A stretch of DNA of 64,000 nt, taken from NCBI GenBank assembly GCA_903848275.1, contig CAINGB010000025.1, positions 4,713 through 68,712 of the forward strand, written 5' to 3'. The position numbers were made by a program, and so were the translations under genes. Under the pieces are notes generated by a model. That model was not told the DNA's origin. It searched no databases and was given only the letters and a program-made list of their open reading frames with translations. This document shows positions 11,427 to 60,800 of the stretch, in pieces. The stretch comes from Candidatus Uhrbacteria bacterium (GTDB taxonomy: Bacteria > Patescibacteriota > Patescibacteriia > UBA9934). How positions within the stretch are numbered: position 1 is the first letter of the stretch; each line of letters starts with the position of its first letter.

Positions 11427-12527
11427 CTAGGTTGTGGAGAACATTTTAGCGATGGCGGTTTTTAGTTCTATCAGGCCTGTTTTAGCGTGTGCAGAAACTA
11501 AGAGCGCGCAGCTGGCCACGTCGGTCGCGACCGACGTGGCGGGCTTTTTGATGGCGTCGATTTTATTGTAGACCGTGAGTCGTGGGTGATCCGCGATATT
11601 TAATTGTTGCAGCACGTCTTCCACTACCGCCATCTTGGCAACGTACTTAGGATCAGCTACGTCGACGATCTGCAGGAGTAAATCAGCGTTGGCGGCTTCA
11701 GATAAGGTCGAATGGAAAGCGCGGATGAGTTGGGGTGGCAAGCCAGCGATGAAGCCGATGGTGTCGGAGAGCAAAATAGTTTCGTTAAGTTCGGGAATGT
11801 AAACGTCGGCCACGCGGGTGTCGAGAGTGGCGAAGAGTTTATCCGCGGCGTATTCCTGACGCTTGCCGAGGGCGTTTAAGAGCGACGTCTTGCCGGCGTT
11901 GGTGTAGCCAACGAGCGCCACGGTTTTCTTTTCCTGACGACGGCGATGCTGCTGGTGTTGGTCGCGGACGCTTTGGCATTTTTCGAGCTTCTGCAAAATC
12001 TGTTTTTCTTGCTCGCGCAAGTGACGCTTCATGGCTTCTGTGTTGCCTTCCCCACTACCACCGACCGTACCACGACCGCCGCGCTGCCGGCCCAATTCCG
12101 CACCCATGTTGAAAATGCGCGGACCCATGTGGCGCAAACGTGCCAGCTCGATTTCTAATTTGGCCTCGCTCGTCTTGGCGTGTTTGTCGAAGATGTTGAG
12201 GATGAGGTCGATGCGATCCCAGACCTGGATTTTGGCGCCACGCAATAGCTCTTCGAGGTTGAAGATCTGCTGAGGCTTGAGGACTTCGTTGATAATCAAA
12301 AGATCGGCGCCGAGGAGCTTGCCTTCTGCCACGATCTCCTCCACCTTGCCGCTGCCGATGTAGGTGCGATTGTCCGGCTTAGCGCGACGCTGGACAGTTC
12401 TAACTACGGCGACCCCACCGTAAGTTTTGGTGAGCTCCTCAAGCTCGGCCAAGCGCTCTAAAGCCTCGGCCTTCGGCACGGTGAAATGAACGAGGTCAGC
12501 GAGGATAGCGCGGCGGAGAGTGGGCAT
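11427..12527 (-). CDS. hflX: GTPase HflX
   Basis: HflX N-domain followed by G-domain motifs LVGYTNAGKTSLLNALG and DTIGFI. Confidence 0.85.
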   Translation of the reverse strand: MPTLRRAILADLVHFTVPKAEALERLAELEELTKTYGGVAVVRTVQRRAKPDNRTYIGSGKVEEIVAEGKLLGADLLIINEVLKPQQIFNLEELLRGAKIQVWDRIDLILNIFDKHAKTSEAKLEIELARLRHMGPRIFNMGAELGRQRGGRGTVGGSGEGNTEAMKRHLREQEKQILQKLEKCQSVRDQHQQHRRRQEKKTVALVGYTNAGKTSLLNALGKRQEYAADKLFATLDTRVADVYIPELNETILLSDTIGFIAGLPPQLIRAFHSTLSEAANADLLLQIVDVADPKYVAKMAVVEDVLQQLNIADHPRLTVYNKIDAIKKPATSVATDVASCALLVSAHAKTGLIELKTAIAKMFSTT

Positions 12528-34995: not shown

Positions 34996-35042
34996 CTGTG
35001 GATAAGTGCTGTATACGTTGAGCGTATACGCTCAACGTATAC
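34996..35042. repeat. Perfect DnaA box (TTATCCACA, minus orientation) followed by a 32-nt perfect palindrome (gtatacgttgagcgtatacgctcaacgtatac) in the scpA promoter region
   Basis: + strand tctgtggataagtgct | gtatacgttgagcgtatacgctcaacgtatac. The palindrome is self-complementary over all 32 nt and contains 3 GTATAC. Confidence 0.7.
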
Positions 35043-35043
35043 A

Positions 35044-36357
35044 CTACGGTCTTAAGCGTTGAACATCCCGAGGGAAAATCGTCGCCTCCTTAACGTTCGC
35101 GAGGCCCAAGATGTTTTGGGTGAGGCGTTGCAGGCCAATAGCGAAGCCGCCTTCGGGGGGAATACCGAATTTGTGCATGGTCAAGTAGTCCTCAAAATCG
35201 GCCGGGTTCAAGCCTTTCTCCACGATGCGGGCGAGCTGTTCGTCGTAGCGGTTAATGCGCATACCGCCGGAAGTGATTTCACTCCCCCAGCCGATGACGT
35301 CGAAAGTGAGGGTGTTGTTCGGGTCGGTTGGATCCACCTTGGCATAGAACGGGCGTTTGGCTGGCGTCCAGTCAGTGACGAAGACAAAGCCGCAGTTGTG
35401 GTGCTTGGGGGCCCATTCTTTGGAGAGCCACTTTTCGGCCGCTGGTGAGAGGTCTGGCTCCCCTGTTTCGTCGACACCGGCTTCGTCGCGGTAAGCGGCC
35501 AGGGCGTCGGCCAGCTTGATACGAGGGAAACGCTCGCCGAGTGGTGGGAGAACGGTTTCGAGAAGTTTTAATTCGACGGTGCAATCACGCTCGACAGAGG
35601 CAACCATCTGGCGAATGGCGGCTTCTTCGATGTCCATGAGCTCGTCGATGCTATCGATGAAACCAGCTTCAAACTCGAGTTGGTTGAACTCGGTCAAGTG
35701 ACGTGAGGTAGCGAATTTTTCGGCGCGGAAGGAGTAGCTCAAACCGTAAACGCCTTCGTAGACGCCCATGGTGATTTGCTTGTAGAGCTGGGCGGACTGG
35801 GTGAGCGTGGCTTCGCGGCCGTAATAGTCGACCTTGAAGAATTCGGCGCCACCTTCACTAGCGGCACCAGCCAGCACGGGGAAGAAAATTTCGGTGTAGC
35901 CCTGAGCTTCCATGAAAGCGCGGTAACCGTGAACCAAAGCGGCCTGCACACGGAAGATGGCGCGCTGCTTAGGGTGACGGAGAGTGACCACGCGGTTGTC
36001 GAGGAGGGTGTCCAAGTTGACGTCGAGCACAGGCTTGCCGATTTCGACTGGCACGACGTCGACAACTGGTGAGAGAATTTCCAAAGTCTCAACTTGCATT
36101 TCGACTTCTTTAATCAACGGATCCTTCGACTTCTTTTCCACGATGAGGCCGGTGACGGCTACGACGGTTTCCACCTGGAGGCCGTGGAGTTGGGTAAGTT
36201 GCTCGGCGTTAAGGACGGTTTGCGCGAGGCCGGAACGGTCGCGGATGATGGCGAAGCCGAACTTGCTCATGTCGCGGAGGGTGTTGAGCCAGCCTTTGAT
36301 GGTGACGACTTCACCTAGATGGCTTGGGAGATCCTTTACTAGAGTTCTGGTATTCAT
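35044..36357 (-). CDS. aspS: Aspartate--tRNA ligase, archaeal/eukaryal type (possibly non-discriminating)
   Basis: Motif 2 FRAEKFATSRHLTEF. Motif 3 GGFAIGLQRL. SGGMRINRYD is AspRS-like. Start taken at MNTRTLVKDL. Confidence 0.75.
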   Translation of the reverse strand: MNTRTLVKDLPSHLGEVVTIKGWLNTLRDMSKFGFAIIRDRSGLAQTVLNAEQLTQLHGLQVETVVAVTGLIVEKKSKDPLIKEVEMQVETLEILSPVVDVVPVEIGKPVLDVNLDTLLDNRVVTLRHPKQRAIFRVQAALVHGYRAFMEAQGYTEIFFPVLAGAASEGGAEFFKVDYYGREATLTQSAQLYKQITMGVYEGVYGLSYSFRAEKFATSRHLTEFNQLEFEAGFIDSIDELMDIEEAAIRQMVASVERDCTVELKLLETVLPPLGERFPRIKLADALAAYRDEAGVDETGEPDLSPAAEKWLSKEWAPKHHNCGFVFVTDWTPAKRPFYAKVDPTDPNNTLTFDVIGWGSEITSGGMRINRYDEQLARIVEKGLNPADFEDYLTMHKFGIPPEGGFAIGLQRLTQNILGLANVKEATIFPRDVQRLRP

Positions 36358-36383: not shown

Positions 36384-37688
36384 TTAAGGAGTTGAGCGAT
36401 TTAGCATGCGGGGGAAGGCGATGGTTTCGCGGATGTGGTGGTTGCCGGTGATCCAACGGACGGTGCGCTCGAGACCGATGCCGAAGCCGCTGTGCTGTAC
36501 GGCGCCGTACTTGCGGGTGTTCAAGTACCAGTCATATTCGGCCAAGGGGTAGCCACGATCCACAATTTCCTTTTTGAGCGCGTCGTAGCTTTCTTCACGC
36601 TGACTACCGCCGATAATTTCGCGGCCTTCTTCTGGCGCGATGAGGTCCGCATTCCTGGCGCGGAGGACGCCAGCTTCATCGACGTAACGCTTCATGTAGA
36701 AGGCTTTGACAGCGGCTGGATAATCCTCGATGAAAATTGGCAGTTGATATTTGTTACCGAGGTAGATTTCTTCCTCCGTGCCCATGTCGTCCAAGGGATC
36801 CACGTCGGCGATGCCGTCGGCGATCAAGATGGCTTTGGCTTCCGCGTGCTTGAGGTGGACGAATGGTTCGTCGACTAGTTTTTGTAAGAGCGTGGTGTCG
36901 CGCTCGAGGATTTTGAGCTCGGGGGCGCAGAATTTGAGGACGTCGCCGACGATGCGCTTGACCATCCGTTCCTGCACAGCCATGTTGTCCACTTGGTCGT
37001 GGAAGGCCATTTCCGCGTCCATCATCCAGAGTTCCGAGAGGTGGTGGCGCGTCTTGCTCTTTTCCGCGCGGAAGACGGGGCCGAAGTCGTAAACTTTGCC
37101 GAAGCTCATGATGCCCGCTTCGCTGTAAAGCTGGCCCGATTGCGAGAGATACATGGGATTGCCGTAGTAGTCGACGCTGAAGAGCTGGGTGGTGTCTTCG
37201 CAGCTAGTTGGCTGCAAGATTGGGGTGTCAAAGCGGATGAAACCGGCTTCGTGGAAGAATTGCTCGATGCTGAAGAAGACTTGGTCGCGAATGCGGAGTG
37301 TGGCCCAGGGCGTGGCGCTGCGGAGGTACAAGTCGCGGTTGTCGAAGAGGAAGTCCGGGCCGTGTTCTTTGTTGGCGATTGGGTAATCTTCTGGAGCGAG
37401 CGCGATGATGGCGAAGGCGGTGCCTTGGATTTCGAAGCCGCTTGGCGCACGAGGCTCAGCTTTAACAAGACCGGTGACGGTGACGGAAGACTCGAGGGTC
37501 AGCGACTTGAGGGCGTCCCATTGCTCGGCTGGCAAATCCCCCGCCGAGTAGACGACTTGGACACGGCCGCTGCCGTCGCGGAATTGGAGGAAGAAGATTT
37601 TGCCGCTGCTCCTGAAGTTGTAGGCCCAGCCTTGAAGAGTAATGGTTTCACCGACGAGGGTTGAGAGTTGGGAGATTGAGGGAGTCAT
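36384..37688 (-). CDS. asnS: Asparagine--tRNA ligase
   Basis: FRAEKSKTRHHLSEL, GGSQREE, DWYLNTRKYGAVQHSGFGIGLER (AsnRS-type motif 3). Start taken at MTPSISQLS. Confidence 0.75.
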   Translation of the reverse strand: MTPSISQLSTLVGETITLQGWAYNFRSSGKIFFLQFRDGSGRVQVVYSAGDLPAEQWDALKSLTLESSVTVTGLVKAEPRAPSGFEIQGTAFAIIALAPEDYPIANKEHGPDFLFDNRDLYLRSATPWATLRIRDQVFFSIEQFFHEAGFIRFDTPILQPTSCEDTTQLFSVDYYGNPMYLSQSGQLYSEAGIMSFGKVYDFGPVFRAEKSKTRHHLSELWMMDAEMAFHDQVDNMAVQERMVKRIVGDVLKFCAPELKILERDTTLLQKLVDEPFVHLKHAEAKAILIADGIADVDPLDDMGTEEEIYLGNKYQLPIFIEDYPAAVKAFYMKRYVDEAGVLRARNADLIAPEEGREIIGGSQREESYDALKKEIVDRGYPLAEYDWYLNTRKYGAVQHSGFGIGLERTVRWITGNHHIRETIAFPRMLNRSTP

Positions 37689-37706
37689 ATAGAGATATTG
37701 TTTTGA

Positions 37707-37847
37707 GTTGGTCACGTTTTGTGACCAACTGGCTACCTGGGGACAATCTGTCCCCAGGTAGCCATCGTAAGAATAGTTTTTTTCGTTCTCAAGTGGTGAC
37801 AACCTGTCACCACTTGACCTCAGTCTGTCACAGTTTGTGACAGACTG
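37707..37847. repeat. Four tandem perfect hairpins between the T-box terminator and the asnS start codon. Stems are 9-13 bp, all built around GTCAC/GTGAC or TGTCCCC cores.
   Basis: + strand: gttggtcac gtttt gtgaccaac. ggctacctggggaca atc tgtccccaggtagcc. caagtggtgaca acc tgtcaccacttg. cagtctgtcaca gtt tgtgacagactg. Confidence 0.7.
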
Positions 37848-37995
37848 AAAAATAAAATTCACCCGTACAGAACGACGAGTTAGGCTCATCATTTTGTAAG
37901 GGCGAATCTTCATTAGATCGCGGTGCCACCTCACTTTAGGCTTTTAAGCAATTGTGCGCGCTGGTCGTTAAGCAGCGGGAGGATTGTCAGGCCTG
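37847..37995 (-). promoter_or_regulatory. Candidate T-box riboswitch leader of asnS. It has a promoter (TTGCCA-17-TATAGT), a short specifier hairpin with AAC (Asn) in its loop, a T-box sequence GGUGGCACCGCG that forms a canonical antiterminator (A1 6 bp, 7-nt bulge UGGCACC, A2 6 bp), and an overlapping 13-bp terminator plus U-tract.
   Basis: Minus strand reads cgcug CUUAACGAC cagcg ... aaGUGAGG UGGCACC GCGAUC uaaugaa GAUUCGC CCUUAC a ... terminator attcgcccttaca...tgtacgggtgaat tttattttt. UGGC is complementary to GCCA (G73 discriminator of tRNA-Asn). Confidence 0.55.
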
Positions 37996-38115
37996 GTAAG
38001 ACTATAGCTGAACGGGGATTTGGTGGCAAGCCTCTAGAATAGAAGAACGACACCGGGGGCATGCCGTTCCCCTGGGGGTCGGGCACCTCACGGTGTCGTT
38101 AAAGTAGAGTTGCAA

Positions 38116-40391: not shown

Positions 40392-40445
40392 GTGGGGATA
40401 AGTGGTCTACATTCAATGTATACATTGAATGTAGACCACTTATCC
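40392..40445. repeat. 50-nt perfect palindrome (25-bp arms, centre GTATAC) flanked by TTATCC(CC)AC DnaA-box-like motifs. Its right arm overlaps the stop codon of the ABC permease gene.
   Basis: ggataagtggtctacattcaatgta|tacattgaatgtagaccacttatcc. The left end reads gtggggataag (reverse complement cTTATCCCCAC). The right end reads cTTATCCACgg. Confidence 0.8.
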
Positions 40446-60715: not shown

Positions 60716-60800
60716 AAAAATAACTCCCGGAGGGCTTGCCACGTCAGTCGCGACTGACGTGGCTTGCACGCCTCCGGGAGATGTTTTTTTATTTAAGCGG
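60716..60800. terminator. Bidirectional intrinsic terminator: nested perfect palindrome (gccacgtcagtcg|cgactgacgtggc inside ctcccggagg/cctccgggag), flanked by A6 and T7
   Basis: aaaaaataactcccggagggcttgccacgtcagtcgcgactgacgtggcttgcacgcctccgggagatgtttttttattt, between convergent genes. Confidence 0.7.

What the first reader, a model, noticed from the sequence alone, without database searches (positions are those of the whole stretch)
37707..37847. Four consecutive perfect hairpins (9-13 bp stems) in the asnS 5' UTR, between the terminator and the start codon
Immediately after the T-box terminator U-tract come four back-to-back perfect inverted repeats: TGTCACA-N3-TGTGACA, GGTGACA-N3-TGTCACC, GGGGACA-N3-TGTCCCC and GGTCAC-N5-GTGACC. 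They are built on related GTCAC/GACA cores and end 18 nt before the ATG, which has no SD. Four independently perfect stems in 140 nt is far from random. They could be operator sites (the TGTCAC/GTGACA palindromes resemble a dimeric TF site), a REP-like miniature repeat array, or RNA structures that set translation efficiency.
Basis: seen in the sequence. Interest (0 to 1): 0.5.

Follow-up and report, generated by a model that had tools for sequence, protein, structure and literature searches.

The report
Orphan hairpin array from Bro-N cassette
The four perfect hairpins in front of the asparaginyl-tRNA synthetase gene are real, but they are a recent lineage-specific insertion, not a conserved asnS control element; three of them match a previously undescribed hairpin that a widespread Bro-N/DinD-like accessory gene keeps inside its own coding sequence and scatters around itself.

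Summary
Four perfect hairpins (stems 13, 13, 16 and 10 bp) lie at 37706-37848 on the minus strand, between a T-box-like terminator and the asnS ATG (37688). About 0.9 such hairpins are expected by chance in the whole 64 kb window.

The array is not part of the conserved leader. Close relatives (L171, L004 and about 15 other Uhrbacteria) have the ATG about 5 nt after the terminator U-tract. Sister genomes that do carry hairpins have an accessory gene between them and asnS: NYN in L002/L003, and Bro-N/DinD-like in L081.

The Bro-N family holds a 12-13 bp hairpin inside its CDS. It shows strong covariation and frozen synonymous sites: ACA and TGT in 73/73 genes, and the Val third base complementary to the D/N/H/Y first base in 73/73.

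A covariance model built only from those intragenic hairpins hits H1, H4 and H2 in the window, and nothing else there. H4 plus its AGCCA flank matches the conserved hairpin upstream of Bro-N genes. H3 is a palindromised copy of that flank.

Best reading: this is an orphan array of Bro-N-cassette hairpin modules, incidental to asnS. The function of the hairpin family is unknown. It has no Rfam family, and I found no literature on it.

The parts
38001..38029 (-). Promoter-like site TTGCCA-17-TATAGT at the head of the short T-box-type leader
   Evidence: Consensus scan, 10 of 12 matches. The GCTATAGTCT block is conserved in close relatives. Function is inferred.
37919..37937 (-). T-box sequence AAAGTGAGGTGGCACCGCG. 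It includes the UGGC that would pair with the GCCA end of tRNA-Asn.
   Evidence: Conserved in about 20 Uhrbacteria asnS leaders. Folds as the canonical antiterminator with a 7-nt bulge. Rfam does not call it in the window; weak hits appear in orthologs.
37848..37908 (-). Terminator stem (37908-37856) and U-tract TTTTATTTTT (37857-37848) of the T-box-type leader
   Evidence: RNA fold of -34.6 kcal/mol; terminator scan. The same sequence directly abuts the ATG in L171 and L004.
37820..37848 (-). H1: 13-bp perfect hairpin TCAGTCTGTCACA-aac-TGTGACAGACTGA. A member of the Bro-N hairpin family.
   Evidence: Model R1 scores 34.5 bits, E 5e-7. It matches 26 of 29 nt of the hairpin inside the L001/L081 Bro-N CDS, and two of the three differences are compensatory.
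37789..37817 (-). H2: 13-bp perfect hairpin TCAAGTGGTGACA-ggt-TGTCACCACTTGA. A member of the Bro-N hairpin family; its orientation is ambiguous.
   Evidence: R1 scores 23.6 bits on the + strand and 23.0 bits on the - strand, E about 6e-4. Homologous hairpins sit at the same position in L002, L003 and L081.
37764..37792 (-). Promoter-like site TTGAGA-17-TACGAT in the window-specific spacer between H2 and H3
   Evidence: Consensus scan, 9 of 12 matches. It resembles TTGACA-17-TACGAT, which precedes the AGCCA+hairpin module of the Bro-N gene in L170. Function is inferred and weakly supported.
37730..37764 (-). H3: 16-bp perfect hairpin. Its 3' arm, TGTCCCCAGGTAGCCA, is the 5' flank of the Bro-N upstream module. 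Its 5' arm is an inverted duplicate of that flank.
   Evidence: It is not a family member (R1 8.5 bits). L081 has only the 3' arm, 17 nt identical.
37706..37737 (-). H4 with its GGTAGCCA flank: GGTAGCC-AGTTGGTCAC-aaaac-GTGACCAACT. This is the conserved hairpin module found upstream of Bro-N genes.
   Evidence: R1 full-length match, 28.6 bits, E 2.4e-5, with the sense strand preferred. AGCCA plus the hairpin is invariant upstream of the Bro-N genes in L081, L136, L159 and L170. blastx reads it as GSQLVTKRDQLK, against GSQLVTKCDQLK in Bro-N proteins.
37689..37705 (-). A/U-rich unstructured spacer CAAAACAATATCTCTAT before the ATG, with no Shine-Dalgarno sequence
   Evidence: Sequence. ATCT..ATG is shared with the empty-site relatives L004 and L171.
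36384..37688 (-). asnS (asparaginyl-tRNA synthetase, 434 aa)
   Evidence: ORF and homologues.

Best explanation
The four hairpins are an orphan array of cis-elements from an accessory-gene cassette. They are not an asnS regulatory device.

Proposed history:
- In the ancestor of this Uhrbacteria lineage, a Bro-N/DinD-like gene inserted between the T-box terminator U-tract and the asnS start codon. It brought its own promoter and 5' region.
- That gene family carries a structure-selected 12-13 bp hairpin with apex GTNACA-NNN-TGTN'AC. The hairpin sits inside the coding sequence.
- The family also has paralogous copies of the hairpin: a conserved 'AGCCA + hairpin' just upstream of the gene, and extra copies upstream or downstream in either orientation.
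- In the window the gene itself is gone. H1 and H2 are extra family copies. The remains also include a promoter-like spacer, H3 and H4.
- H4 is the upstream module. H3 is a secondary palindrome made by inverted duplication of H4's 5' flank.

What is shown and what is inferred:
- Shown: family membership, insertion polymorphism, and selection for pairing.
- Inferred: the hairpins act as single-stranded (RNA or ssDNA) hairpins, recognised by shape plus the conserved apex. The most likely partner is the Bro-N/DdrC-like nucleic-acid-binding protein, or a host factor that controls or moves the cassette.
- Inferred: for asnS they are passengers. They are transcribed only after T-box read-through. 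They lack U-tracts, so they do not terminate. They leave the AU-rich start region free. At most they stabilise the mRNA 5' part or supply a weak T-box-independent promoter.
For: Insertion polymorphism:
- L171 is closer to the window than the hairpin-bearing L002/L003 are (asnS nucleotide identity 87.9% against about 85.6%). L171, L004 and about 15 other Uhrbacteria have the U-tract, then ATTCT or ATCT, then the ATG, with no hairpins.
- The same site holds an NYN gene in L002/L003 and a Bro-N gene in L081. In each case hairpins precede the gene.

Intragenic Bro-N hairpin:
- In 72 distinct sequences, 89% of cells are paired, against 25-37% when the partners are slid.
- 9 of 13 pairs show compensatory changes. 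0 of 500 shuffles reach the observed values.
- Thr is ACA in 73/73 genes (25% elsewhere in the same genes). Cys is TGT in 73/73 (38% elsewhere).
- The Val third base is complementary to the first base of the D/N/H/Y codon in 73/73.
- The hairpin is kept even where the peptide is replaced (L088, L089, L130, L152).

Family membership of the window hairpins:
- Model R1 was built only from those intragenic hairpins. In the window it finds H1, H4 and H2 and nothing else.
- In 1.33 Mb of CPR asnS loci it finds only the L001-L003 leaders.
- About 20 extragenic copies lie beside Bro-N genes, including a five-hairpin array in L160.
- The AGCCA+hairpin module is shared by the window, L081, L136, L159 and L170.

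Other:
- No hairpin is followed by a U-tract.
- Foldseek places the Bro-N protein model nearest the DNA-binding protein DdrC, with E from 5e-5 to 2e-3.
Against: - No Bro-N gene is present in the 64 kb window, so any partner protein would have to be encoded elsewhere or be absent.
- All four window hairpins are perfect, whereas those in L081 are decaying. That could mean they are still under selection in this genome.
- The array stays open in frame with asnS.
- Single insertion plus precise loss, and repeated insertion at the same site, cannot be told apart.
- The function of the hairpin family is untested.
- The protein model is poor in the N-terminal half (pLDDT 64 overall), so the DdrC resemblance is only a lead.
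- The NYN cassette has no family hairpin of its own.
Confidence: 0.6

Rival explanations
1. A generic selfish palindromic repeat (REP, MITE or PATE-like). It is moved in trans by a transposase and is unrelated to the Bro-N gene. It happened to land in the asnS leader.
For: - The array is absent from orthologous leaders and present or absent among close relatives.
- Copies occur in both orientations and in arrays.
- A GTAG lies in the H4 flank (GGTAGCCA), reminiscent of the 5' GTAG of REPs (own knowledge).
Against: - There are no further copies in the 64 kb window or in 1.33 Mb of CPR loci.
- Every other copy found lies inside or within about 2 kb of a Bro-N gene.
- Copies carry gene-like flanks (GGxAGy...CTGAAAw).
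- No transposase lies nearby.
Confidence: 0.12
2. The hairpins are functional parts of the asnS mRNA leader. They set translation efficiency or mRNA half-life after T-box read-through.
For: - They lie in the 5' UTR, are very stable, and are perfect in this genome.
- At least three other public contigs encode the identical 509-aa read-through ORF, so the array's translation is identical in them.
- 5' stem-loops are known to stabilise bacterial mRNAs (own knowledge).
Against: - They are absent in L171, L004 and all more distant orthologs, where the ATG follows the U-tract directly.
- In sister genomes another gene separates them from asnS.
- The L081 copies are decaying.
- The same hairpins occur in unrelated genomes beside Bro-N genes.
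Confidence: 0.08
3. The hairpins are by-products of mutation. Template switching or fold-back copying at short palindromic nuclei creates and perfects palindromes, and the hairpins have no function.
For: - H3 is an inverted duplication of a flank that is single-copy in L081.
- H5 of L002/L003 may be a similar palindromised 3' flank.
- Other unrelated perfect palindromes occur in this lineage.
- Correction of quasipalindromes by template switching is an established process (own knowledge).
Against: - This does not explain why H1, H2 and H4 share sequence, apex and flanks with Bro-N hairpins from unrelated organisms.
- It does not explain the frozen synonymous sites across 73 diverse genes.
Confidence: 0.12
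4. The repeats are operator sites (double-stranded DNA palindromes) for a dimeric transcription factor that controls asnS or the cassette.
For: - The TGTCAC/GTGACA cores are palindromic.
- One Bro-N promoter (L170) carries a LexA-box-like GAAC-N4-GTTC nearby.
Against: - Perfect symmetry over 26-35 bp, with a different sequence in each copy, is not what operators look like.
- The central N of GTNAC covaries instead of being conserved.
- The stem can be replaced wholesale (L089).
- The sites lie downstream of the T-box terminator.
Confidence: 0.04
5. The array is a guide-RNA array of the TIGR stem-loop type, or a CRISPR-like array.
For: Tandem hairpins with variable palindromic stems occur in CPR bacteria. 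TIGR stem-loop arrays are described as variable but consistently palindromic (PMC12045711).
Against: - The loops here are 3-5 nt. They have no room for box C/D motifs or two 8-12 nt spacers (one search compared).
- No Nop-domain (Tas) or cas gene lies nearby. The neighbours are recO, ruvX, asnS and an aspS-like gene.
Confidence: 0.01

Closest known systems
REP/BIME-type repetitive extragenic palindromes (mobilised by RAYT) and related small palindromic repeats
   Same: Both are short stable palindromes, often in tandem and in both orientations. Both show presence/absence between close strains, stems that change with compensation, and location in transcribed intergenic DNA next to terminators.
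   Different: Copy number is very low and the copies are not dispersed. The copies are bound to one protein-coding gene family, which carries the archetype inside its CDS. No RAYT or IS200-type gene was seen.
Cis-sites embedded in the gene of their own protein: the pT181 origin hairpin inside repC, the phiX174 origin inside gene A, and parS inside parB/spo0J (own knowledge)
   Same: In each case a nucleic-acid site lies within the coding sequence of a nucleic-acid-binding protein and shapes the codons there. Extra copies lie nearby.
   Different: Nothing shows that the Bro-N/DinD-like protein binds, nicks or replicates from the hairpin. The family has no HUH or Rep motifs that I could recognise. 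This is an analogy of layout only.
Integron attC sites and gene cassettes
   Same: Both involve single accessory genes swapped at one fixed site beside hairpin-forming DNA that is recognised by shape.
   Different: attC sites are imperfect, have extrahelical bases and a GTTRRRY core, and follow each cassette. Here the stems are perfect, precede the cassette, and no integrase is present.
TIGR stem-loop arrays (PMC12045711)
   Same: Both are arrays of variable palindromic stems in CPR bacteria and phages.
   Different: TIGR units have large loops with box C/D motifs and two spacers, and they sit next to a Tas (Nop-domain) gene. None of this applies here.
T-box leader (RF00230): the context, not the hairpins themselves
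   Same: The upstream element has the T-box sequence, a UGGN bulge that fits tRNA-Asn, alternative antiterminator and terminator folds, and a U-tract.
   Different: It is very short, about 145 nt, and falls below Rfam's threshold. The four hairpins are not part of it.
Quasipalindrome template-switch mutations (own knowledge)
   Same: This process explains H3, which is a perfect palindrome created from a single-copy flank.
   Different: It does not explain the shared sequence family of H1, H2 and H4.

Membership tests
Bro-N-gene hairpin family (defined here by model R1 from 72 intragenic hairpins) | Significant covariance-model match: a 12-13 bp stem, apex GTNACA-NNN-TGTN'AC, and flanks GGxAGy/CTGAAAw | tested here: met
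   H1 scores 34.5 bits (E 5e-7), H4 28.6 bits (full length) and H2 23.6 bits. H3 scores 8.5 bits and is not a member. There are no other hits in the 64 kb window.
Bro-N-gene hairpin family | Physical association with a Bro-N/DinD-like gene | tested here: inconclusive
   No Bro-N gene is in the window. The sister genome L081 has one exactly at this site. The window also keeps the gene's conserved AGCCA+hairpin upstream module.
T-box leader (RF00230) | Reaches Rfam's gathering score | tested here: not met
   There is no hit in the window even at E up to 10. Orthologs L012 and L018 score 30.5 and 24.5 bits against a cut-off of 93.
T-box leader (RF00230) | Conserved T-box sequence forming an antiterminator with a 7-nt bulge UGGN complementary to the tRNA 3' end, mutually exclusive with a terminator | tested here: met
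   AAAGTGAGGTGGCACCGCG is conserved. It folds with the bulge UGGCACC, and a competing terminator plus U-tract is present. tRNA-Asn genes in related loci end in G73.
T-box leader (RF00230) | Specifier codon for the cognate amino acid displayed in Stem I | tested here: inconclusive
   AAC sits in the loop of GCTGCTTAACGACCAGCG (37976-37959). GAACA motifs occur in orthologs. No structural alignment of Stem I was made.
REP/BIME (RAYT-associated) | Many dispersed extragenic copies in the genome | tested here: not met
   Copies occur only at this locus in 64 kb, and only in the sister leaders in 1.33 Mb of CPR DNA. The whole genome was not available.
REP/BIME (RAYT-associated) | A cognate RAYT/TnpA(IS200-like) gene | not testable with these tools
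   Only a 64 kb window was available. No such gene lies among the ORFs near the locus.
MITE | Terminal inverted repeats flanked by a target-site duplication | tested here: not met
   Comparison of the filled site with the empty sites (L171, L004) shows no duplicated target at the array ends.
Integron attC | An imperfect hairpin with extrahelical bases and R/L core sites (GTTRRRY), placed 3' of the cassette, with an IntI integrase | tested here: not met
   The stems are perfect and lie 5' of the cassette genes. No core sites were seen in the sequence, and no integrase lies in the neighbourhood.
TIGR stem-loop array | Loops carrying box C/D motifs and two 8-12 nt spacers, with an adjacent Tas (Nop-domain) gene | tested here: not met
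   The loops are 3-5 nt. The neighbouring genes are recO, ruvX, asnS and an aspS-like gene. The definition is taken from PMC12045711.
Intrinsic terminators | A G+C-rich stem followed directly by a U-tract | tested here: not met
   The scan finds only the T-box terminator (37880-37861 plus GAATTTTATT). None of H1-H4 is followed by a T-run on the mRNA strand.
Type III toxin-antitoxin RNA repeats (ToxI-like) | Near-identical direct tandem repeats preceding an endoribonuclease toxin gene | tested here: not met
   The units differ in sequence and are palindromes, not direct repeats. An NYN (RNase-like) gene follows the array only in L002/L003.

The most novel reading that the evidence does not exclude
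The GTNACA hairpin may be the cognate, shape-recognised nucleic-acid site of the Bro-N/DinD-like (DdrC-like) protein. It would be embedded in the protein's own coding sequence, in the way an origin or operator sometimes is. The roughly 40-nt satellite copies would act as extra binding or recombination sites that let the cassette, and others such as the NYN gene, insert and excise precisely at places like the asnS start codon. That would make this a previously undescribed kind of gene-embedded, self-propagating hairpin element that is widespread in CPR and other bacteria.
Probability: 0.25. Interest if true: 0.8.

Novelty: new variant of a known kind. Interest (0 to 1): 0.6.

Why it matters
For asnS, the result removes a tempting but wrong reading. 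The hairpins are not a second regulatory layer on the T-box. They are a passenger insertion, and public annotation has even absorbed them into a 509-aa 'AsnRS'.

The wider point is the hairpin family itself. A structure is kept by compensatory change inside the coding sequence of a gene family with thousands of members. Its synonymous sites are frozen in 73 of 73 genes, and it has satellite copies around the gene. Structured elements inside bacterial coding sequences are rarely documented this clearly.

This one offers a tractable case of a nucleic-acid constraint dictating a protein motif (QxVTxC[DNHY]xL). It may also be a handle on how solitary accessory genes move in the small genomes of CPR bacteria.

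The analysis also documents a short T-box-type asnS leader, widespread in Uhrbacteria, that Rfam's model misses.

Tried and rejected
- Rfam on the window, on the leader and on Bro-N loci found no family for the hairpins, only chance miRNA-like hits.
- TIGR-type arrays were considered after a literature hit and rejected on anatomy.
- I first read H4 as a decayed Bro-N gene fragment, from the blastx match GSQLVTKRDQLK. I revised this because the same AGCCA+hairpin unit is a conserved module upstream of intact Bro-N genes.
- I tested whether the flanks GGAAG...AAAATG form a split ribosome-binding site for an internal start. I dropped the idea because the codon after the hairpin is ATG in only about a third of genes.
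- A search for LexA-type boxes (GAAC-N4-GTTC) upstream of Bro-N genes found only L170.
- I looked for wobble asymmetry to distinguish RNA from DNA. Mismatches in CDS copies are mostly C.A on the sense strand (21, against 6 U.G), which is uninformative under coding constraint.
- An exact look-up of the window's AsnRS found nothing. The public gene call is the 509-aa read-through ORF, for which no DNA was retrievable.
- The AlphaFold model of the Bro-N protein is poor across the hairpin-encoded peptide (pLDDT below 50 for residues 55-118), so I cannot say what that peptide does in the fold.
- A profile search of PDB sequences found nothing.
- Three literature searches found no description of the hairpin or of T-boxes in CPR bacteria.

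Full report
**Observation**

The gene is on the minus strand. The asnS CDS runs 36384-37688, with the ATG at 37688-37686. In mRNA order, four perfect inverted repeats follow a U-tract:

| Hairpin | Coordinates | Stem | Loop |
|---|---|---|---|
| H1 | 37848-37820 | 13 bp | 3 nt |
| H2 | 37817-37789 | 13 bp | 3 nt |
| H3 | 37764-37730 | 16 bp | 3 nt |
| H4 | 37730-37706 | 10 bp | 5 nt |

H4 ends 17 nt before the ATG, and there is no Shine-Dalgarno sequence. The window has 10 perfect hairpins with stems of 10 bp or more, against 0.9 expected from Markov simulations. Four of them lie within 143 nt. The leader folds with z = -12.5 against shuffles.

**Context: a short T-box-type leader**

Rfam reports no T-box in the window. 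Other evidence supports one:

- AAAGTGAGGTGGCACCGCG (37937-37919) is conserved upstream of asnS in about 20 Candidatus Uhrbacteria genomes.
- It folds as the textbook antiterminator: helix A1 GTGAGG/CCTTAC, a 7-nt bulge UGGCACC, then helix A2. This competes with a -34.6 kcal/mol terminator (37908-37856) followed by TTTTATTTTT.
- UGGC matches the G73 discriminator base seen in tRNA-Asn genes of related loci.
- Rfam's T-box model gives weak, correctly placed hits in two orthologous leaders.
- A promoter-like TTGCCA-17-TATAGT (38029-38001) would make the leader only about 145 nt long. That probably explains why the model misses it.

**The array is not part of the conserved leader**

In L004 and about 15 further Uhrbacteria, the ATG follows the U-tract by about 5 nt (GAATTTTATTTTT-ATCT-ATG). 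L171 has the same empty site. Its asnS is 87.9% identical to the window's at the nucleotide level, closer than the hairpin-bearing L002/L003 at about 85.6%. The roughly 160-nt array is therefore a presence/absence polymorphism. Either it was inserted more than once at the same spot, or it was lost precisely.

Three sister genomes have hairpins at the same place, but with a gene between them and asnS:

- an NYN-domain gene in L002 and L003;
- a Bro-N/DinD-like gene in L001/L081.

The hairpins differ between genomes by compensated changes and by order. In L081 they are decaying.

**Link to the Bro-N gene**

The L001/L081 Bro-N gene contains, inside its CDS, a 13-bp perfect hairpin that matches 26 of 29 nt of H1. 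I fetched 85 homologous genes from metagenomes and viral contigs. In them the peptide S-[QE]-x-V-T-x-C-[DNHY]-x-L-K is encoded by CAG NNN GTN ACA NNN TGT N'AC N'N'N' CTG.

On 72 distinct sequences:

- 89% of cells pair, against 25-37% when the partners are slid.
- 9 of 13 pairs show changes on both sides.
- No shuffle out of 500 reaches the observed covariation.

Synonymous sites settle the question of what is being selected:

- Thr is ACA in 73/73 genes (25% elsewhere in the same genes).
- Cys is TGT in 73/73 (38% elsewhere).
- The D/N/H/Y codon ends in C in 73/73.
- The third base of Val is always the complement of the first base of the D/N/H/Y codon (GTC/GAC 29, GTT/AAC 25, GTG/CAC 18, GTA/TAC 1).

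Variants with other peptides keep the hairpin: TT-x-CS as ACT/AGT, ST-x-CR as TCG/CGA, and QLYEKIVQL as CAACTGTACGA-aaaaa-TCGTACAGTTG. This is selection on a nucleic-acid hairpin, and the protein sequence accommodates it.

**Family membership of the window hairpins**

Covariance model R1 was built only from those intragenic hairpins. Results:

- Window, filters off: H1 scores 34.5 bits (E 5e-7). H4 scores 28.6 bits, a full-length match that includes the flanks. H2 scores 23.6 bits. Nothing else is significant. H3 and the other perfect palindromes of the window do not score.
- 1.33 Mb from 80 CPR asnS loci: the model hits only the L001-L003 leaders.
- Bro-N loci: besides the intragenic site, it finds about 20 extragenic copies in about 12 loci, in both orientations. 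These include a five-hairpin array downstream of the gene in L160.

A module 'AGCCA + hairpin' lies 20-80 nt upstream of the ATG of Bro-N genes in L081, L136, L159 and L170. The same module is the 3' arm of H3 plus H4 in the window. L081 has only the 3' arm of H3, with 17 nt identical. H3 is therefore an inverted duplication of that flank.

The spacer between H2 and H3 contains TTGAGA-17-TACGAT. It resembles the TTGACA-17-TACGAT promoter that precedes the module in L170.

**Interpretation**

The array is what remains of, or accompanies, a Bro-N cassette inserted at the asnS start. H1 and H2 are extra family copies. The rest is a promoter-like spacer, a palindromised flank (H3) and the upstream module (H4).

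For asnS the hairpins are passengers:

- They are made only after T-box read-through.
- They lack U-tracts.
- They leave the AU-rich start region as it is in genomes with the empty site.

What the hairpin family does is not shown. The pairing constraint together with a conserved apex suggests recognition as a folded single strand. The protein is a plausible partner because Bro-N is a nucleic-acid-binding domain (own knowledge). The predicted structure is poor in the N-terminal half, but its best PDB matches are all DdrC, a DNA-binding DNA-damage-response protein, with E from 5e-5 to 2e-3. That step is inference.

**Rivals**

- A generic REP-like element is disfavoured by the lack of dispersed copies.
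- An asnS-specific RNA device is disfavoured by its absence from close relatives.
- Operators are disfavoured by the covariation.
- Pure template-switch palindromes explain H3 but not the shared family.
- TIGR arrays are excluded by anatomy.

**Novelty**

No Rfam family covers the hairpin, and three literature searches found nothing. I class it as a new variant of a known kind: small palindromic repeat elements, here tied to and embedded in one gene family. The literature search was limited, so 'undescribed' is provisional.

Noticed in passing
L081 10163-10201; L086-L170 (for example L094 1873-1911, L089 1663-1701): A Bro-N/DinD-like gene family of about 275 aa keeps a covarying 12-13 bp hairpin inside its CDS. 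More than 8000 homologues were found at E below 1e-10. Synonymous sites at the hairpin are frozen (ACA and TGT in 73/73 genes). The hairpin survives even where the encoded peptide is replaced.
   Followed up: yes
L160 2195-2400; L120 2855-2948; L136 1911-1942; L170 406-437; L141 274-298: Extragenic copies of the same hairpin lie upstream or downstream of Bro-N genes in unrelated metagenomic contigs, in either orientation. Neighbouring copies differ by compensated pairs. L160 has five in a row.
   Followed up: partly
L002 9387-9920, L003 8583-9100, L081 10001-10828: Sister genomes carry a different accessory gene (NYN-domain or Bro-N) inserted exactly at the asnS start. Each begins with ATATGACT, as asnS does in the window, which suggests a cassette hot spot or deletion between short repeats.
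   Followed up: partly
window 36384-37934 (-): The reading frame of asnS stays open upstream through the whole hairpin array into the T-box leader. A public gene call (P0243, 509 aa) starts there. This is very probably an annotation artefact.
   Followed up: partly
window 11515-11540 and 60738-60763; L003 13322-13347: A second repeated palindrome, GCCACGTC[G/A]GTCGCGAC[C/T]GACGTGGC, with a compensated difference between copies. Each copy is followed by a T-run, so it looks like a terminator. The copy at 60738 is nested in a longer stem.
   Followed up: no
window 35010-35043 and 40396-40445; L001 3654-3689; L003 11874-11913: Long perfect palindromes centred on GTATAC or TATA, 34 and 50 nt, lie in intergenic spots. 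The orthologous spot after the aspS-like gene holds a different perfect palindrome in sister genomes.
   Followed up: no
window 37764-37792 (-): A promoter-like TTGAGA-17-TACGAT lies inside the array. If active, it would transcribe asnS independently of the T-box.
   Followed up: no
window 37848-38029 (-); L004-L020 upstream of asnS: A short T-box-type asnS leader of about 145 nt is conserved across Candidatus Uhrbacteria but missed by Rfam's T-box model. In most genomes the ATG follows the U-tract by about 5 nt, with no Shine-Dalgarno sequence.
   Followed up: partly
window 35044-36354 (-) and 36384-37688 (-): Two class II Asp/Asn-type tRNA synthetase genes lie in tandem: asnS followed by an aspS-like gene. 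Only the first has the T-box-type leader.
   Followed up: no
L170 365-400: The Bro-N gene promoter TTGACA-17-TACGAT encloses GAACGATCGTTC, which resembles a LexA box. That would fit the 'DNA-damage-inducible protein D' label some sources give the family. No other locus showed it.
   Followed up: partly
window 38047-38097 (-): A G+C-rich 10-bp inverted repeat, AACGACACCG...CGGTGTCGTT, lies between a small upstream ORF and the T-box promoter. It is conserved in L081 and is probably the terminator of the upstream unit.
   Followed up: no
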